Shown: one piece after another, positions 31,275 to 36,962 of the stretch | How positions within the stretch are numbered: the first letter of the stretch is position 1 | Layout of the letters: each line of letters begins with the position of its first letter | IMG/VR virus record: IMGVR_UViG_2534681703_000017 | Direction: 5' to 3' (one strand) | DNA: 36,962 nt | Origin: a virus | Taxonomy: Duplodnaviria; Heunggongvirae; Uroviricota; Caudoviricetes | Position numbers and translations under genes: made by a program | Notes under the pieces: model-generated | The model's database searches: none | What the model saw: only the letters and a program-made list of their open reading frames with translations | What the model was told of the DNA's origin: nothing

Positions 31275-31847
31275 ATGAATATGGTCGATTTATTTCGCGC
31301 CATGCTGCCACCTGTCAGTTATGACCCGAACGGGAAATATATTTCCGCAGAACTGACCGCCGAGGCTGACGTCATGGAGGCCGTGAAGGCCTCAGCGGCG
31401 CGCGTTCTGGCACAAATCACCCCGTTGCAGGCATCGATGACGCTGTCCGACTGGGAGCGCGTGTACGGTGTTGTCCCCCGTGAAGGGGCAACACAACAGG
31501 AGCGGCGGCAGAATATTCTGGTAAAAATGGCAGCCACGGGCGGGCTGTCAATCCCTTACTTTAAGAGCCTTGCCGCCAGTCTGGGCTATACCATCACCAT
31601 TACGGAGCCGCGACCGTTCCGGGTGGGGATAAACCGCTGTGGTGACCATCTGCTGATACCGGAAATCCGCTGGGCGTGGCAGGTCAACGTTATCGGGACA
31701 AAAACACCGGTCTACCGGTTCAGAACGGGTGCATCGGCAACCGGTGAACCGCTGACGGCCTTCGGGGAATCCATTTTAGAAAACACGTTTAAAGACCTTA
31801 AACCGGCTTTTACAGACTGTTATTTCACGTATGAGGTGGAGGAATAA
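31275..31847 (+). CDS. Tail protein (Mu gp48 / P2 gpI-like, DUF2313-like)
   Basis: 190 aa between baseplate J and the tail fiber. Confidence 0.55.
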   Translation: MNMVDLFRAMLPPVSYDPNGKYISAELTAEADVMEAVKASAARVLAQITPLQASMTLSDWERVYGVVPREGATQQERRQNILVKMAATGGLSIPYFKSLAASLGYTITITEPRPFRVGINRCGDHLLIPEIRWAWQVNVIGTKTPVYRFRTGASATGEPLTAFGESILENTFKDLKPAFTDCYFTYEVEE

Positions 31848-32650
31848 TGCGGAATTTAATGCTCCCGGTGAATACGCCGGATAAGTTATTTCATGACGGT
31901 GACCCGACTCAGGGAATTGAGGGAACCATCGTTACTGCTGAATTTATGAATAATCATCAGGCGGCAACGCGTGATTTGCAGCAGGAGGTGATTAACGTCC
32001 TTAAAGAGGCCGGCGTCACCCCTGACCCGGAAAAACAAAACCAGCTGGTTGAGGCGCTGACCTCGTTTATTGGTCAGAAAGTCCCGGATGCATCACTGAC
32101 GCAAAAAGGCGTGGTGCAGCTTAACAGTGCTGTTAACAGTGAATCAGAAACAGAAGCAGCTACGCCAAAAGCGGTCAAGATTGCGATGGATAACGCAAAC
32201 GCCAGACTGGCAAAAGACCGTAACGGCGCAGACATCCCGAATAAACAATTGTTTCTGGATAACATCGGCGGTGCGCCGAAAACGCGCAAAATTAACAATA
32301 TGCCCCTGACGTCGGATATCACCATCAACAACATCGGCGGCAACGCCGGAACGGCAACCCGACTTCAGACGGCCCGCAGGATTAACAATGTGCTGTTTGA
32401 TGGCACCAGGGATATCACCATCAGTACCACCGATTCCGGCGCGGTGCGTAATTTTCAGTACACCAATGAGGTGTTTCACAACCCGGGTGGTAACGAAATC
32501 ACCTGGACGTTCCGCGCGCCTTCAGGCTGTCAGTTGTCGGGAATTTATGTCCAGGATACAGGAAGAGGTTCTGCGGATAACATCGGAGGTGTGTATTACA
32601 AACAAGCCCAGATTTATATCAATGGCGGATGGCGCGCGGTATCCGGCTAA
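31847..32650 (+). CDS. Tail fiber protein (short)
   Basis: Contains the conserved fiber motif KGVVQLNSAVNSESETEAATPKAVKIAMD; followed by a Tfa-type chaperone. Confidence 0.65.
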   Translation: MRNLMLPVNTPDKLFHDGDPTQGIEGTIVTAEFMNNHQAATRDLQQEVINVLKEAGVTPDPEKQNQLVEALTSFIGQKVPDASLTQKGVVQLNSAVNSESETEAATPKAVKIAMDNANARLAKDRNGADIPNKQLFLDNIGGAPKTRKINNMPLTSDITINNIGGNAGTATRLQTARRINNVLFDGTRDITISTTDSGAVRNFQYTNEVFHNPGGNEITWTFRAPSGCQLSGIYVQDTGRGSADNIGGVYYKQAQIYINGGWRAVSG

Positions 32651-32664
32651 TTAAGGAGAAAATA

Positions 32665-33189
32665 ATGGAACTCAGAAACGTTTCGCGTTATTACCCGGAA
32701 GAGATGCCTTATGGTGAAAACATTCAGTATTTTCGCAGTGAAGACGGACAGGATTTTTATGAATCACTGGATAAATTCACGAAGAAATACAAATTGTGTA
32801 TTCACCCTGAAAGCGGCGTGATTTATTCAATGGCGGAAGACGTGTCCCGTCTTTATCCGGCTGGCTTCACCATTGTGGAAGTGGATGAACTGCCGGAAGA
32901 TTTTGGCATTGAAGCCAGCTGGTATTACAAAGACGGCGAAGTGCTGCCGGTTCCTGTTGATTACTCGCGACTGGCAGAAAAAAAACGCCAGAGCCTGCTG
33001 AATGAAGCGAAGGACATCACCTCAGACTGGAAAACCGAGCTGGAGCTGGGCACCATCAGCGACGATGACAAAGCCCGTCTTACGCAGTGGATGGCATATA
33101 TCAAAGCGGTAAAGGCGCTGGATTTAAGTCAGGTCAGTGACGAATCCTCCTTTTATTTAATTCAGTGGCCTGAAAAACCTGACGTGTAA
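32665..33189 (+). CDS. Tail fiber assembly chaperone (Tfa/U-like)
   Basis: ATG 32665 is 6 nt after AAGGAG (32653-32658); C-terminal region resembles the lambda Tfa C-terminus. Confidence 0.65.
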   Translation: MELRNVSRYYPEEMPYGENIQYFRSEDGQDFYESLDKFTKKYKLCIHPESGVIYSMAEDVSRLYPAGFTIVEVDELPEDFGIEASWYYKDGEVLPVPVDYSRLAEKKRQSLLNEAKDITSDWKTELELGTISDDDKARLTQWMAYIKAVKALDLSQVSDESSFYLIQWPEKPDV

Positions 33190-33197
33190 AACAATAA

Positions 33198-33223
33198 CGG
33201 TCGCTGTCTGGCGACCGTTTTCA
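33198..33223 (+). terminator. Intrinsic terminator: CGGTCGC-TGTCTG-GCGACCG followed by TTTTCAGTT
   Basis: Perfect 7-bp stem and T-rich tail, between the first fiber/chaperone pair and the second fiber gene. Confidence 0.55.
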
Positions 33224-33236
33224 GTTCAGAGGCTTT

Positions 33237-36221
33237 ATGTCTGTATTAATTTCAGGTGCGCTGATTAATGGCGCTGGCGTTCCGATGGCGGAATGCAAAA
33301 TTTATTTAGATGCACTGGTTAATACCAGTGAAGTGGTTATTGAATCATTTGCGGTTATTGAAACCGATGCGGCGGGACAGTATGCCTTTGAAGCACAAAA
33401 AGGCAAATACACCGTACACATCAAGCAAAAGAACGGCCCTAAGTGCTGTGTGGGTGACATTTCGGTTTACGAAGATTCAAAGCCCGGCACGCTGAACGAC
33501 TTTCTGACTGCCCTTGATGAAGGCGATTTAAAGCCGGATGTAGTGAAACGCTTTGAGGAAATGGTGGCGCAGGCGCAGCAGAGCGCGGAAGCGGCAGCGA
33601 AAAGCGAACAACTGGCCGGGCAACACGTCGCTGATGCGCAGAAGATAAAGGCAGACTGTCAGACGCTGGCGGATAACGTAGCGCAGAACGCAGAAGACGT
33701 TGCTGAAGACAAAAAGCAGGTGGCGCTGCTGGCATCATCTGCCACACAGGATGCGGCCCGCGCAGAGCAGGCGGTCAAAGATGCCGACACGATAGTCCAG
33801 AAAGCGGTCGATAAACTCGGTGAAGCCGCAACGCTGAGCGGCGAGGCAAAGGCCAGTGCAGAAGCGGCAGCAAAAAGCGAGCAGGGCGCAAAACAGCACA
33901 GGGACGAGGCGCAACGGATAGTTGATGACCTGAAGGGAAGCAGTGCTTCCACGACAGAAAAAGGCCTGGTGCAACTCTGTAGTGATACGGACAACGACAG
34001 CGAAGAACTGGCAGCCACACCGAAGGCCGTCAAAACCGTCATGGACGAGACGAAAACAAAAGCGCCGCTGGACAGCCCGGCATTCACCGGCACGCCCACC
34101 ACACCAACCCCACCGGACGATGCTGCCGGTCTGGAAACAGCGAACGCGGCATTTGTCCGCAAACTGCTCGCTGCACTGGTTGACTCGTCACCGGAAGCCC
34201 TGGACACGCTGAACGAGCTGGCAGCGGCGCTGGGAAATGACCCGAATTTTGCGACGACAGTCACCAAAGCACTGGCAGGTAAACAGCCACTCAGTGACGT
34301 GTTAACCGCAATCAGTAATCTGGAAGAACGGGCAGATAATCTTCTGTGCTTTAATCAGGACGGAAATGCTTCACTGTCTCCACTGTCAGAAAAAGCCCGG
34401 TCACTGCTGGCACAGGCCACAGTGGAAGCTATGCGCAATGAGCTTGAGCTGAAAAGCGCAGCGGTAATGGATATTCAGACAGACATTCACGACAGCACGA
34501 AAGGCCGCATTGCGCTTCCCGGTGCGTATGGTTACGGAATGACGGACGCCGGAGCGCGTTCAATTATTGCCAGCGATATGGTGACTGTAGCCAGAACTGC
34601 GCACAACGTACATCCGGGACGGTATTACACCTTTTCCACGCAAACGGAAGAAACAACCGGGATAACAGAAATTATCTGGCTGGATAATGGCCGGGCCGAC
34701 AAAACCAGCCAGACAGCAACAAAGCTGGTTCTGTTTTTTGGAAAAGACGGACGGATTCTTATGACCGTTCGTGGCGATAATATCTCCGCCCCGGTCACCT
34801 GGACGAATCTGACGCCACAACTTGGCAATGCAGCACAGAAGGATGCGCAGGAGAATATTTACGACCGCACCGAAGGCCGTCTGGCGATTCCCGGCATGTT
34901 TGGATTCGGGAAAGTATTTTCCAGCGGCGACAGGACCGAGTTTAAAACAGAGGCCGATTTTCTCCGCTGGGTAAAAACGGCAAATCCCGGACGCTATGCC
35001 GTTTATGCAGATACAAATGCGGTAATACAGGGCGTGCTGTTCAAGGGTACCGTTGAAATTATCTGGCCGGAATCTCAACCCAGTCCCAATCCGGAATATG
35101 TGGCCAAAATCATTATTTTTTACGGTATTAACGGTCATATTTATTACAATCGCTACTGGACTACCGGAGATGGTTATCTGGTTGGCTGGGAAAACCTGAA
35201 GGTTGATGAGGCTTCACTCCGGGCACTGATTGAAACCCGCGCGCCACTGAACAGCCCGGCACTGACCGGAACGCCGTCCACGCCAACACCACAGGATGAT
35301 GCAGCAGGCACTGAAATAGCCAATGCGGCGTTTGTGCGCAAACTGCTCGCCGCACTGGTTGGCTCATCACCGGAAGCCCTGGACACGCTGAACGAGCTGG
35401 CAGCGGCACTGGGCAATGACCCGAACTTTGCGACAACCGTCACTAATGCACTGGCAGGTAAACAGCCGCTTAACGATACGTTAACCAGTATCAGCAAGGC
35501 AGGGGTGGGACAAAACTCTCTCCTTTATTTTGGTGATAACTTTAAAGCAAAAGCAATTCCATGCAGCAACAAGGCTCGCTCATTACTGGCACGAAACACG
35601 CCTGAATCCATGCGCGCGGAGCTTGAACTGAAAGCGGCTGCGACGATGGAACCCCAGACCGATATCCGTGACCGTACACCCGGCAGGCTGTCGCTACCGG
35701 GCGCTTTTGGCTTTGGTAAGGCATTCAGTAACACAGAAGCCCTGACATTTAACGGGCAGGCTGATTTTGCTGAATGGCTGAAGGAAGCCATGCCGGGGCG
35801 TTATGCGGTCAGTATTGCGGACTCTTCCACGCTGCTGGCTGGCACAACGAAATTTAACGGCATCATTGATGTGATGTGGTCACCCTTTGATAACGACGAG
35901 TCAGACACAGTGCGTAAATTCAAAACGCTGCTGTGTTTTAACCAGTATTACGAAGGTGAGCACAGTATTCATCGCCTGACTTACCGCTGGAGTGGAAACA
36001 ACTGGAATGCAACAGTAAGCCCCATTATTTACGACGGCGATTCGCTGGCCTTCCTGCTGTCCAGGACGGCGGGCTCAGGCTCATATTTCAAATACCCGGC
36101 AGTGGGTGTTCCAGTGCTGGCTGTTTATCGCGGAACAACTTTCGGGGATAAAGAAATCAATATTGGCCTGGGTGATGTGGTGCAGGGGTCACAACTGGGC
36201 GGAGTTAATCTTCGTGCTTAA
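33237..36221 (+). CDS. Side tail fiber protein, lambda Stf-like, with duplicated internal module
   Basis: N-terminus (ISGALINGAGVP...YEDSKPGTLNDFL) and the KGLVQL...LAATPKAVK...APLDSPA..GTP...LNELAAALGNDPNFATT..ALAGKQP block resemble lambdoid Stf as remembered; the block occurs twice. Confidence 0.75.
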   Translation: MSVLISGALINGAGVPMAECKIYLDALVNTSEVVIESFAVIETDAAGQYAFEAQKGKYTVHIKQKNGPKCCVGDISVYEDSKPGTLNDFLTALDEGDLKPDVVKRFEEMVAQAQQSAEAAAKSEQLAGQHVADAQKIKADCQTLADNVAQNAEDVAEDKKQVALLASSATQDAARAEQAVKDADTIVQKAVDKLGEAATLSGEAKASAEAAAKSEQGAKQHRDEAQRIVDDLKGSSASTTEKGLVQLCSDTDNDSEELAATPKAVKTVMDETKTKAPLDSPAFTGTPTTPTPPDDAAGLETANAAFVRKLLAALVDSSPEALDTLNELAAALGNDPNFATTVTKALAGKQPLSDVLTAISNLEERADNLLCFNQDGNASLSPLSEKARSLLAQATVEAMRNELELKSAAVMDIQTDIHDSTKGRIALPGAYGYGMTDAGARSIIASDMVTVARTAHNVHPGRYYTFSTQTEETTGITEIIWLDNGRADKTSQTATKLVLFFGKDGRILMTVRGDNISAPVTWTNLTPQLGNAAQKDAQENIYDRTEGRLAIPGMFGFGKVFSSGDRTEFKTEADFLRWVKTANPGRYAVYADTNAVIQGVLFKGTVEIIWPESQPSPNPEYVAKIIIFYGINGHIYYNRYWTTGDGYLVGWENLKVDEASLRALIETRAPLNSPALTGTPSTPTPQDDAAGTEIANAAFVRKLLAALVGSSPEALDTLNELAAALGNDPNFATTVTNALAGKQPLNDTLTSISKAGVGQNSLLYFGDNFKAKAIPCSNKARSLLARNTPESMRAELELKAAATMEPQTDIRDRTPGRLSLPGAFGFGKAFSNTEALTFNGQADFAEWLKEAMPGRYAVSIADSSTLLAGTTKFNGIIDVMWSPFDNDESDTVRKFKTLLCFNQYYEGEHSIHRLTYRWSGNNWNATVSPIIYDGDSLAFLLSRTAGSGSYFKYPAVGVPVLAVYRGTTFGDKEINIGLGDVVQGSQLGGVNLRA

Positions 36222-36383
36222 TATCTTCTCCTGGGGTTGGCTCCTACAATTCCGCACCGAGTGCAGGAGCTACAGGGTACACTTTCCCGGGGCGTTATAT
36301 GGCGCTATCCGGGGTCAGGGACTCTAAAGGAATAACCGGTCGTATCTGCCTGTTTGTGCGCATCGAGTAACGGGGAATAAAAC

Positions 36384-36962
36384 ATGAAAATCAGAGCGGT
36401 AAAGGGCATCAGAAACGCCCATTATCTTGAAAATGGTGCGGTTGACTGCGAGGTGTTATTTGAAGGTGAAACGGAATTCGTCCCGTATACCGCCATGCAG
36501 GATGATACCGCACCGACAGGCCAGCGCATCTGGGAAGAGTTGCAGAACGGCAAATGGGGCGAAATCGCCCCTTTCACTGTCACGCCGGAACTTATCGCCG
36601 CGGCGAAGGATGCCAAAAAGCAGGAAATCGAGGCATGGCGCACAGAACAGGAAGCACTGCCGTTCACCTTTGAATGGAACGGTCGCACCTGGAACGCTGG
36701 CCCCGACTCAATGGCCCGTCTTTATCCGGTAGTAATGGCGGCGAAATCCGATACGGCACGAACCGCCCTTGCATGGGGTGATGCCGATAATCAACAGGTG
36801 AAACTGTCAATGCCGGAACTGGAAGAACTGGCGACAGCAATGGCGCAGGCGCAGGTCGATCGCAATGACGAGATTTATCAGCGCCAGCGTGAAATGAAGG
36901 AAGAACTGAATAACCTGAATGATTTACGCTCAGTCAGAGCGATGCTGATTAGCAGTAATTAG
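36384..36962 (+). CDS. Putative tail fiber assembly/chaperone-like protein (DUF4376-like)
   Basis: 192-aa ORF after the Stf-like fiber with AACGGGGAATAAAAC upstream; family assignment uncertain. Confidence 0.4.
   Translation: MKIRAVKGIRNAHYLENGAVDCEVLFEGETEFVPYTAMQDDTAPTGQRIWEELQNGKWGEIAPFTVTPELIAAAKDAKKQEIEAWRTEQEALPFTFEWNGRTWNAGPDSMARLYPVVMAAKSDTARTALAWGDADNQQVKLSMPELEELATAMAQAQVDRNDEIYQRQREMKEELNNLNDLRSVRAMLISSN

What the first reader, a model, noticed from the sequence alone, without database searches (positions are those of the whole stretch)
34062..35497. About 250-bp internal direct repeat (core ~143 bp at roughly 90 percent identity) 1.18 kb apart inside the Stf-like fiber gene
The collar-like block (APLDSPA..GTP..ANAAFVRKLLAALV.SSPEALDTLNELAAALGNDPNFATTVT.ALAGKQPL) is encoded twice, at about 34062-34318 and 35242-35497, in frame and in the same orientation. 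A following ELELK..QTDI.D.T.GR..LPG..G.G module also recurs (three copies in the protein). Homologous recombination between the DNA repeats would delete exactly 1,180 bp in frame, giving a shorter fiber. The repeat may be a source of fiber length or receptor-domain variation, or a record of a past duplication.
Basis: seen in the sequence. Interest (0 to 1): 0.5.

Follow-up and report, generated by a model that had tools for sequence, protein, structure and literature searches.

The report
Duplicated joint module in prophage tail fibre
The repeat is real: a Mu-like E. coli prophage's side tail fibre gene contains two old copies of a very common fibre building block, which marks where fibre parts get swapped or occasionally deleted by recombination, and this is an ordinary feature of phage tail fibre genes.

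Summary
Window 34062-34318 and 35241-35497 are 257-nt direct repeats at 83.3% identity, ungapped and in frame. They lie 1,179 nt (393 codons) apart, not 1,180. The core is 155 nt at 90%, and the longest exact run is 41 nt.

The DNA repeat is the best-conserved part of a larger protein duplication. A unit of [86-aa block, 54-aa linker, ~130-aa M domain] occurs twice, and a third M domain lies between the units.

The gene is a lambda-Stf-family fibre (PF08400) in a Mu-like E. coli prophage. The duplication is old and stable. All 120 best database clusters keep the same layout, and each copy keeps its own residues.

The block is one of the commonest phage fibre repeats. It matches 18,673 representative proteins, with up to 13 stretches per protein, and phage P1 gene S carries it as the annotated tandem elements b1/b2.

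Recombination inside the block has happened in nature. Three single-block E. coli alleles are A-5'/B-3' hybrids with different switch points, and one is exactly one period shorter than the long allele at its locus. Short forms are rare.

The window differs from its nearest relative almost only in a 484-nt patch that starts where linker B ends. This is an ordinary finding of modest interest.

The parts
33237..36221 (+). Stf-family side tail fibre ORF as it stands in the window (994 aa). It is cut short by a frameshift; intact relatives are 1044 aa.
   Evidence: ORF list. Pfam phage_tail_N and Phage_fiber_2. PHROG tail fibre families. P0001 is 98% identical and 1044 aa long.
33237..33635 (+). 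N-terminal attachment domain (residues 1-133), the 'prophage tail fibre N-terminal' domain.
   Evidence: PF08400, E = 2.8e-48. PDB 9e7m ('Tail fiber protein', 94 residues), E = 1.4e-16.
33948..34067 (+). Phage_fiber_2 repeat (residues 238-277), immediately before block A.
   Evidence: PF03406, E = 7.9e-16. Aligns to Mu fibre protein S, PDB 5yvq/8ju3.
34062..34318 (+). Block A, DNA repeat copy 1 (residues 276-361). The 90% core is 34134-34288 and the 41-nt exact run is 34188-34228.
   Evidence: Block HMM E = 1.4e-54.
34320..34481 (+). Linker A (residues 362-415), ending in ELELK.
   Evidence: Linker HMM E = 5.8e-37. Aligned with linker B.
34482..34871 (+). M1 domain (residues 416-545), first copy of the GR..LPG..G.G module.
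   Evidence: M HMM E = 5e-52. Pairwise alignments.
34872..35240 (+). M2 domain (residues 546-668), second copy. It has no block or linker of its own.
35241..35497 (+). Block B, DNA repeat copy 2 (residues 669-754). The 90% core is 35313-35467 and the 41-nt exact run is 35367-35407.
   Evidence: Block HMM E = 5.7e-55. Matches P1/P7 gene S 'repeated element b2' at 83-85% DNA identity.
35499..35660 (+). Linker B (residues 755-808), ending in ELELK.
   Evidence: Linker HMM E = 6.4e-38.
35661..36065 (+). M3 domain (residues 809-943), third copy, followed by the C-terminal tip.
   Evidence: M HMM E = 7.7e-54.
35659..36142 (+). Divergent patch. It holds 61 of the 65 mismatches between the window and its 99.1%-identical relatives, and it starts exactly at the end of linker B.
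   Evidence: No donor was found.
36210..36212 (+). Site of a 1-nt deletion (CTTTCG to CTTCG) that creates the stop codon at 36219-36221.
   Evidence: Three-frame translation, sequence, alignment to L010/L011 with a single gap.
36211..36359 (+). Out-of-frame remainder of the fibre gene. It encodes the normal C-terminal ~50 residues (...SCLISS...CLFVRIE).
36384..36962 (+). DUF4376 gene, the constant downstream partner of this fibre type. The ORF listed ends at the last base of the window, and the relatives L010/L011 call a product of the same 192 aa.
   Evidence: PF14301, E = 8.5e-17. PHROG 1141. The same partner follows the fibre gene in every E. coli locus fetched with annotation.
31847..33189 (+). 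Context: the prophage's other fibre set, a 267-aa fibre with Phage_fiber_2 and a Caudo_TAP assembly protein.

Best explanation
The 257-nt repeat is the most conserved stretch of an old, stably kept internal duplication in a lambda-Stf-family accessory tail fibre of a Mu-like E. coli prophage. The duplicated unit is a cassette: an 86-aa block, a 54-aa linker and a ~130-aa M domain. The fibre reads: N-terminal anchor, Ala-rich stem, Phage_fiber_2, [block A, linker, M1], M2, [block B, linker, M3], C-terminal tip.

The block is a generic, widely reused fibre module. Both copies stay similar mainly because each must still encode that module (purifying selection), not because they homogenise each other.

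As a by-product, the conserved core gives homologous recombination a foothold. Recombination between block A and block B removes exactly one period (1,179 nt, 393 codons) in frame. This has happened rarely but repeatedly in nature. Recombination between this gene and other fibre genes at the block or linker swaps the distal, presumably receptor-binding part.

Shown here: the repeat, the cassette layout, its stability, the hybrid single-block alleles and the swapped patch. Inferred: that the block builds the fibre trimer, that M1 and M2 are shaft knobs, that M3 plus the tip binds the receptor, and that RecA or a co-resident phage recombinase does the recombining.
For: Repeat and frame.

Cassette duplication: units A and B are 50% identical over 260 aa, E = 4e-74. 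M2 is a third M copy.

Family: PF08400 and PF03406, PDB tail fiber chain 9e7m at the N-terminus, and a Mu-like prophage context.

Old and stable:
- 25 synonymous against 11 non-synonymous codon differences between the copies.
- All 120 best clusters have the layout b-l-M-M-b-l-M with a spacing of 391-394 aa.
- Copy-specific residues are nearly fixed: position 4 is D (119/120) in A and N/K in B, position 8 is F in A and L (119/120) in B, position 24 is L in A and N/T (119/120) in B. Within-protein A=B identity equals the permutation expectation, 812 against 812.1.

Generic module:
- The block hits 18,673 representative proteins at E <= 1e-3, with 2-13 matched stretches per protein in most of the top 150.
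- P1 gene S carries two adjacent copies that its GenBank record annotates as repeated elements b1 and b2.

A x B recombination in nature:
- The SC418 allele equals the W allele minus 1,176 nt at the same chromosomal site.
- At the 13 columns inside the block that distinguish A copies from B copies, SC418, CEA224S and C311 are A-type on the 5' side and B-type on the 3' side, with different switch points. STEC383 is A-type and A36 B-type at all but one of the 42 diagnostic columns, as their layouts predict.

Distal swaps:
- Phage Rac-SA53 and related E. coli alleles match the window gene contiguously up to nt ~2241, near the end of block B, and then diverge. In Rac-SA53 the M domain after linker B is only partial.
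- The window and its 99.1%-identical relatives differ almost only in a 484-nt patch that begins at the end of linker B.

Feasibility: phage recombinases recombined 79-88%-identical segments whose longest exact runs were 41-49 bp. The frequency reported for the 79%-identical, 41-bp case was 8e-7 per phage. The minimal exact pairing is 23-27 bp for Red-beta and 31-34 bp for RecA (PMC3945230).
Against: - The direction of the long/short events is not proven. A hybrid block could also arise by recombination between two different fibre genes rather than within one long gene.
- SC418 is a single genome. A collapsed assembly across the repeat cannot be excluded from here.
- The 41-nt exact run is not by itself unusual given the synonymous divergence of the rest of the block. 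That is my own rough estimate, not a tool result. DNA-level selection for recombination is therefore not shown.
- No recombinase was recognised among the ten early ORFs scanned, so the enzyme is unknown.
- The gene in this window is frameshifted, so this copy may not make a working fibre at all.
Confidence: 0.78

Rival explanations
1. Active length or host-range switch. The repeats are kept because frequent A x B recombination produces a mixed population of long and short fibres, as a contingency locus would.
For: Deletion is in frame. The 41-nt exact run exceeds the published minimal pairing lengths. Three natural A/B hybrid alleles have different crossover points.
Against: All 120 best clusters are long. 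No close short allele appears among the best 120 hits to the predicted deletion product. The SC418-type allele is unique in 5,426 complete E. coli genomes, against about 20 long ones. A deletion cannot be reversed, so it is not a switch. The copies are 17% diverged and show no homogenisation.
Confidence: 0.1
2. Two-tier fibre. Unit A (block, linker, M1, M2) is a former fibre tip that is now internal but still binds a second receptor, or docks another protein to form a branch. The duplication would then give dual specificity.
For: STEC383 has unit A with M1 and a partial M2 followed directly by a C-terminal end, with no unit B. A36 and P0126 show further cassette arrangements. M-domain relatives occur in fibres of the virulent phages Goslar and Av-05. 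The stable retention of about 390 extra residues suggests they are useful.
Confidence: 0.08
3. Module exchange here is driven by site-specific invertases (Cin/Gin/Min type) acting at cix-like sites next to the block, as proposed for the P1, Mu and p15B fibre genes, and not by homologous recombination.
For: In P1 the cixR crossover site lies about 150 nt after element b2, at a position equivalent to the ELELK end of the linker. PMC3945230 mentions this idea for stf genes, citing Sandmeier 1994.
Against: No cix-like sequence occurs at either ELELK site. The best 26-mer match between 31001 and the window end is 16/26, and it lies elsewhere. There is no inverted copy of the block or its core in the window. 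The hybrid alleles switch inside the high-identity core, as homologous recombination predicts.
Confidence: 0.03
4. Chance similarity or an assembly artefact.
For: None.
Against: E = 4.7e-75. The 41-mer appears in none of 100 shuffles. The same layout is present in two independent 99.1%-identical assemblies and in 120 protein clusters.
Confidence: 0.01

Closest known systems
Lambda Stf / Rac StfR-type side tail fibres (the 'prophage tail fiber N-terminal domain-containing protein' family, PF08400)
   Same: Same N-terminal domain: PF08400 at E = 2.8e-48, and PDB tail fiber chain 9e7m at E = 1.4e-16. Ala-rich stem, Phage_fiber_2 repeat, the block and linker, and a small partner gene downstream. 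Hundreds of E. coli and Salmonella database entries carry this name and the same ~1045-aa layout.
   Different: The gene sits in a Mu-like contractile-tail prophage beside a second fibre set. The partner gene is DUF4376, not the lambda-type Caudo_TAP assembly protein. The block-linker-M cassette is present twice. From my memory of its sequence, lambda Stf has one block; I did not test this here.
Phage P1 (and P7, p15B) gene S constant part with repeated elements a0/a1/b1/b2 (Sandmeier, Iida and Arber 1992, as annotated in GenBank NC_005856)
   Same: P1 elements b1 and b2 are two direct copies of the same block. My block HMM matches residues 253-329 (E = 9.3e-26) and 327-410 (E = 2.7e-36). Block B matches b2 at 83-85% DNA identity. 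In both cases the block ends the constant part, just before the exchangeable distal part.
   Different: In P1 the copies are adjacent (222-nt period, 63% identical to each other) and lie next to a Cin invertase site. Here they are 1,179 nt apart with two M domains between them, are 83% identical, and have no cix-like site.
Mosaic exchange of tail fibre gene segments among unrelated phages (Haggard-Ljungquist et al. 1992; Sandmeier 1994), and relaxed homologous recombination of stf genes (De Paepe et al. 2014, PMC3945230)
   Same: Breakpoints between alleles fall at the conserved block or linker. The identity and exact-run length here lie within the range shown experimentally to recombine.
   Different: Those studies concern exchange between genomes. 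Here the same homology also exists twice within one gene, so an in-frame deletion is possible. The two 1992 papers and the 1994 paper could not be read here. I know them from the reference list of PMC3945230 and from general knowledge.
Repeated knob or shaft domains of contractile-tail fibres (R2 pyocin fibre PDB 6cu2/6cl6, T4 gp34 5nxh, Mu S 8ju3)

Membership tests
Lambda Stf-type side tail fibre (PF08400 family) | N-terminal 'prophage tail fibre N-terminal' domain | tested here: met
   PF08400 covers residues 1-133, E = 2.8e-48, 163.8 bits against a cut-off of 26.6. The 94-residue PDB tail fiber chain 9e7m aligns at E = 1.4e-16.
Lambda Stf-type side tail fibre (PF08400 family) | Phage_fiber_2 repeat followed by the conserved block and linker before the distal part | tested here: met
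   PF03406 covers residues 238-277. Block and linker HMM hits follow. The same block is present in P1 S.
Lambda Stf-type side tail fibre (PF08400 family) | Downstream Tfa-type (Caudo_TAP) assembly gene | tested here: not met
   The downstream gene is DUF4376 (PF14301), not Caudo_TAP. A Caudo_TAP gene lies upstream, but it belongs to the other, 267-aa fibre.
Lambda Stf-type side tail fibre (PF08400 family) | Mounted on the side of a non-contractile lambdoid tail tip | not testable with these tools
   The context is a Mu-like contractile-tail prophage with sheath, Mu portal and gp44/47/48-like baseplate proteins. The attachment site is unknown.
P1-type repeated elements b1/b2 in gene S | Two direct copies of the block within one fibre gene | tested here: met
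P1-type repeated elements b1/b2 in gene S | Copies adjacent, head to tail | tested here: not met
   The copies are 1,179 nt apart, with linker A, M1 and M2 between them.
Invertase-switched fibre host-range systems (Cin/Gin/Min) | cix/gix-type crossover sites at the constant/variable junction | tested here: not met
   No cix-like 26-mer at the ELELK junctions; the best match is 16/26 and lies elsewhere.
Invertase-switched fibre host-range systems (Cin/Gin/Min) | Alternative distal segments in inverted orientation, plus an invertase gene | tested here: not met
   No inverted copy of the block or its core. In relatives L010 and L011 the DUF4376 gene is followed by host genes.
Contingency locus (recombination-driven phase or length variation) | Length variants common among close relatives | tested here: not met
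   All 120 best clusters have the long layout. No close short allele was found. One SC418-type allele exists in 5,426 genomes.
Contingency locus (recombination-driven phase or length variation) | Measurable switching within a clonal population | not testable with these tools
   This needs PCR or deep sequencing of cultures and lysates.

The most novel reading that the evidence does not exclude
The long allele is a two-tier fibre. Unit A (block, linker, M1, M2) would be a former tip kept as a working second receptor-binding or docking site. Rare RecA- or phage-recombinase-mediated A x B recombination would then be a one-way, in-frame long-to-short conversion that changes host range in part of the population.
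Probability: 0.08. Interest if true: 0.5.

Novelty: new member of a known kind. Interest (0 to 1): 0.25.

Why it matters
The finding gives a clean, well-documented example of how tail fibre genes are built from reusable cassettes and rearranged at a shared homology joint. The same joint is present twice in one gene, natural alleles are exactly one period shorter, and a recently swapped distal patch starts at the joint.

This helps in annotating prophage fibres. Many copies of this protein are mislabelled 'shikimate transporter', and no Pfam or NCBIfam model covers the block or the M domain.

It also helps in choosing splice points when engineering chimeric fibres for altered host range. It does not reveal a new mechanism.

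Tried and rejected
- **Gene conversion between copies A and B.** Across 120 protein clusters, within-protein A=B identity at the 14 columns polymorphic in both copies equals the permutation mean (812 against 812.1). Two nucleotide sites shared by both copies within a genome were therefore not pursued.
- **Invertase site.** No cix-like sequence was found.
- **Phage-encoded recombinase.** None was recognised in ten early ORFs, all of which were of unknown, regulatory or lysis function.
- **Structure of one full period.** pLDDT was 52, and the Foldseek PDB hits had TM 0.1-0.16, which is uninformative. M2 alone gave a usable but only moderate model.
- **Donor of the swapped M3 patch.** It was found neither in the fetched loci (best 88.7%) nor in complete E. 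coli genomes (best 86.8%).
- **Close short allele of this fibre.** The best 120 hits to the predicted 651-aa product are all at least 951 aa long. Long forms score on both block copies and may crowd out weaker short forms, so this is a lower bound on sensitivity.
- **A literature source for PDB entry 9d93.** The full-text search returned nothing relevant.
- **The 1992 Sandmeier paper.** It is not held in the library.
- **Some 'query_to ~2230-2260' rows (H23-H30, H33).** These are two-piece matches. I infer that the target's single block A was also aligned to the query's block B. They were not counted as breakpoints at block B; only the one-piece matches (H21, H31, H41) were.
Full report
**1. 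The observation**

The window has one long ORF at 33237-36221 (+), 994 aa. Within it, the repeat finder reports a single strong direct repeat: 34062-34318 and 35241-35497, 257 nt, 83% identical, ungapped, with start-to-start spacing 1179. Self-blastn of the gene gives the same pair at 83.3% identity, E = 4.7e-75.

By my count 214 of 257 positions are identical. The longest stretch at 90% or more is 155 nt (34134-34288 / 35313-35467). The longest exact run is 41 nt (34188 / 35367). That 41-mer occurs exactly twice in the window and in none of 100 shuffles.

The spacing of 1,179 nt is 393 codons. The 85 encoded residues differ at 11 codons non-synonymously and at 25 synonymously. Both copies are therefore under purifying selection, and the duplication is not recent.

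**2. What the gene is**

Pfam finds the 'prophage tail fibre N-terminal' domain (PF08400, residues 1-133, E = 2.8e-48) and a Phage_fiber_2 repeat (residues 238-277). PHROGs gives tail fibre families. The N-terminus aligns to the 94-residue PDB tail fiber chain 9e7m.

The window is a Mu-like transposable prophage. It encodes Mu-type transposase and ATPase, a Mu portal, a tail sheath, and gp44/gp47/gp48-like baseplate proteins. It has no close DNA relative among sequenced phages.

Upstream lies a second, shorter fibre (267 aa) with a Caudo_TAP assembly protein. Downstream lies a DUF4376 gene.

The last 7.7 kb of the window is 99.1% identical to two E. coli assemblies, L010 and L011, so the host is E. 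coli.

**3. The repeat at protein level**

The DNA repeat is only the best-kept part of a larger duplication. Residues 276-535 align with 669-930 at 50% identity over 260 aa, E = 4e-74.

I built HMMs for three modules: block (86 aa), linker (54 aa) and M domain (about 130 aa). With these the fibre reads block A, linker, M1, M2, block B, linker, M3, C-terminal tip.

M2 is a third M copy without its own block. It is 25% identical to M1 and 48% identical to M3 over 66 aa.

**4. Age and stability**

The best 120 protein clusters (79-98% identical; E. coli, E. marmotae, Salmonella) all have this layout, with a block spacing of 391-394 aa. Copy-specific residues are nearly fixed across them: at position 4, D in 119 of 120 A copies and N/K in all B copies; at position 8, F in all A copies and L in 119 of 120 B copies.

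At the columns polymorphic in both copies, within-protein identity of A and B equals the permutation expectation (812 against 812.1). The two copies therefore evolve independently, and the long form is the stable state.

**5. The block is a generic fibre module**

A 90-residue query covering the block hits 18,673 representative proteins (E <= 1e-3) in the 50%-clustered library. Most of the top 150 carry 2-13 matched stretches. The sequences show tandem runs of the block, or of block plus linker.

Phage P1 gene S has two adjacent copies. Its GenBank record annotates them as 'repeated element b1' and 'b2', just before the cixR site that starts the invertible variable part. Block B matches b2 at 83-85% DNA identity.

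No Pfam-A or NCBIfam model covers the block, the linker or the M domain. 'Collar-like' is thus a nickname only. The sole solved relative of the block by sequence is PDB 9d93, 'Tail collar fibers, gp4'.

**6. Has recombination between the copies happened?**

Yes, but rarely. At the same chromosomal site, next to uspF/ompN, E. coli W has a 1046-aa allele and E. coli SC418 a 654-aa allele. SC418 equals W minus exactly 1,176 nt, which is W's own repeat spacing.

SC418's single block is identical or nearly so to A copies on the 5' side and to B copies on the 3' side. The switch falls inside the high-identity core.

I then used 42 columns that are fixed differences between A and B in three double-block alleles, 13 of them inside the block. 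At these columns SC418, CEA224S and C311 are all A-then-B hybrids, and their switch points differ. STEC383 (unit A only) is A-type and A36 (a block preceded by an M domain) is B-type at all but one of these columns.

A clean 5'/3' partition is what a crossover leaves. Divergence from a single ancestral block would not leave it.

The events cannot be oriented with certainty. They could be intragenic deletions or exchanges between two fibre genes.

Short forms are rare. SC418's allele is unique among 5,426 complete E. coli genomes, against about 20 long ones. The best 120 hits to the predicted 651-aa deletion product of this window's fibre are all long.

**7. The block as an exchange joint**

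Phage Rac-SA53 and related E. coli alleles match the window gene contiguously up to nt ~2241, near the end of block B, and then diverge. In Rac-SA53 the M domain after linker B is only partial. Many other alleles share only the part up to block A plus linker.

The clearest case is the window itself. It differs from L010/L011 at 65 positions in 7,727 nt. Of these, 61 lie in one 484-nt patch, 35659-36142, whose first mismatch sits at the last codon of linker B. The patch has 23 synonymous and 22 non-synonymous codon changes, which fits an imported diverged homologue. I found no donor.

Published experiments show that lambda and phi80 recombine with prophage segments 79-88% identical whose longest exact runs are 41-49 bp. 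The phi80 segment with 79% identity and a 41-bp run gave 8e-7 recombinants per phage. Phage Rad52-like recombinases tolerate divergence better than RecA, and the minimal exact pairing is 23-27 bp against 31-34 bp (PMC3945230). The repeat here, at 83% identity with a 41-nt exact run, falls in that range.

No cix-like invertase site is present. No recombinase was recognised among ten early ORFs.

**8. Structure**

A model of one full period was poor (pLDDT 52), and its Foldseek hits were uninformative.

In BFVD the closest matches are fibre proteins of the virulent E. coli phages Goslar and Av-05, at 39-46% identity. This agrees with the DNA hits to Av-05. That M is a fibre knob-type domain is a reasonable inference, not a demonstration.

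**9. Verdict**

The repeat is a record of an old duplication, and recombination between the copies can and did delete one period. However, the long form is stable, and the main visible role of the block is as a homology joint for swapping distal parts.

Repeated block elements in fibre genes (P1 b1/b2) and mosaic exchange at conserved fibre motifs have been known since the early 1990s. This is therefore a new member of a known kind, of modest interest.

The most novel reading left open is a two-tier fibre with a functional internal former tip. I give it about 8%.

Noticed in passing
window 36210-36221 (and 36211-36359): The fibre gene carries a 1-nt deletion in a T run (CTTTCG to CTTCG) relative to two 99.1%-identical E. 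coli contigs. This creates a stop at 36219-36221 and removes the last ~50 residues. The rest of the gene is readable in another frame up to 36359. It could be a real inactivating mutation or a homopolymer sequencing error.
   Followed up: yes
window 35659-36142: 61 of the 65 mismatches to the nearest relatives (L010/L011, over 7,727 nt) fall in this 484-nt patch at the start of the M3 domain, beginning exactly where linker B ends. It looks like an imported segment. No donor was found in complete E. coli genomes.
   Followed up: partly
window 31847-36962; loci L001-L008, L010, L011: The same cassette of Stf-like fibre plus DUF4376 gene sits at the end of several kinds of prophage. These are Mu-like (window, L010, L011), Rac-SA53-like next to uspF/ompN (L001, L002, L003, L005), one with a baseplate J/YmfQ/phage tail protein/tail fiber assembly gene set next to ssrA (L007), and P2-like directly after the gpD/late control gene (L004, L006, L008). 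It behaves as a portable accessory fibre module, and the Mu-like prophage thus carries two fibre sets.
   Followed up: partly
database entries P0008, P0010, P0011, P0036 and many others: Many public copies of this tail fibre protein are named 'shikimate transporter'. This appears to be an annotation error that has spread between records.
   Followed up: no
window 34062-35240 and 35661-36209: No Pfam-A or NCBIfam model covers the block and linker or the M domains, even though the block alone matches 18,673 representative proteins. This very common fibre repeat appears to lack a curated family model in these libraries.
   Followed up: partly
L004 2291-4255 (E. coli STEC005): An allele annotated as a pseudogene ends right after M2, about where block B would begin, with ~320 nt before the DUF4376 gene. 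This may be another rearrangement at the block B position.
   Followed up: no
window 34530-34750 (gene nt 1294-1514, start of M1): This stretch is 80-86% identical in DNA to fibre genes of virulent E. coli phages (Av-05, 18-1-2, vB_EcoM_TH18). M-domain sequence is therefore shared between temperate and virulent phages.
   Followed up: partly
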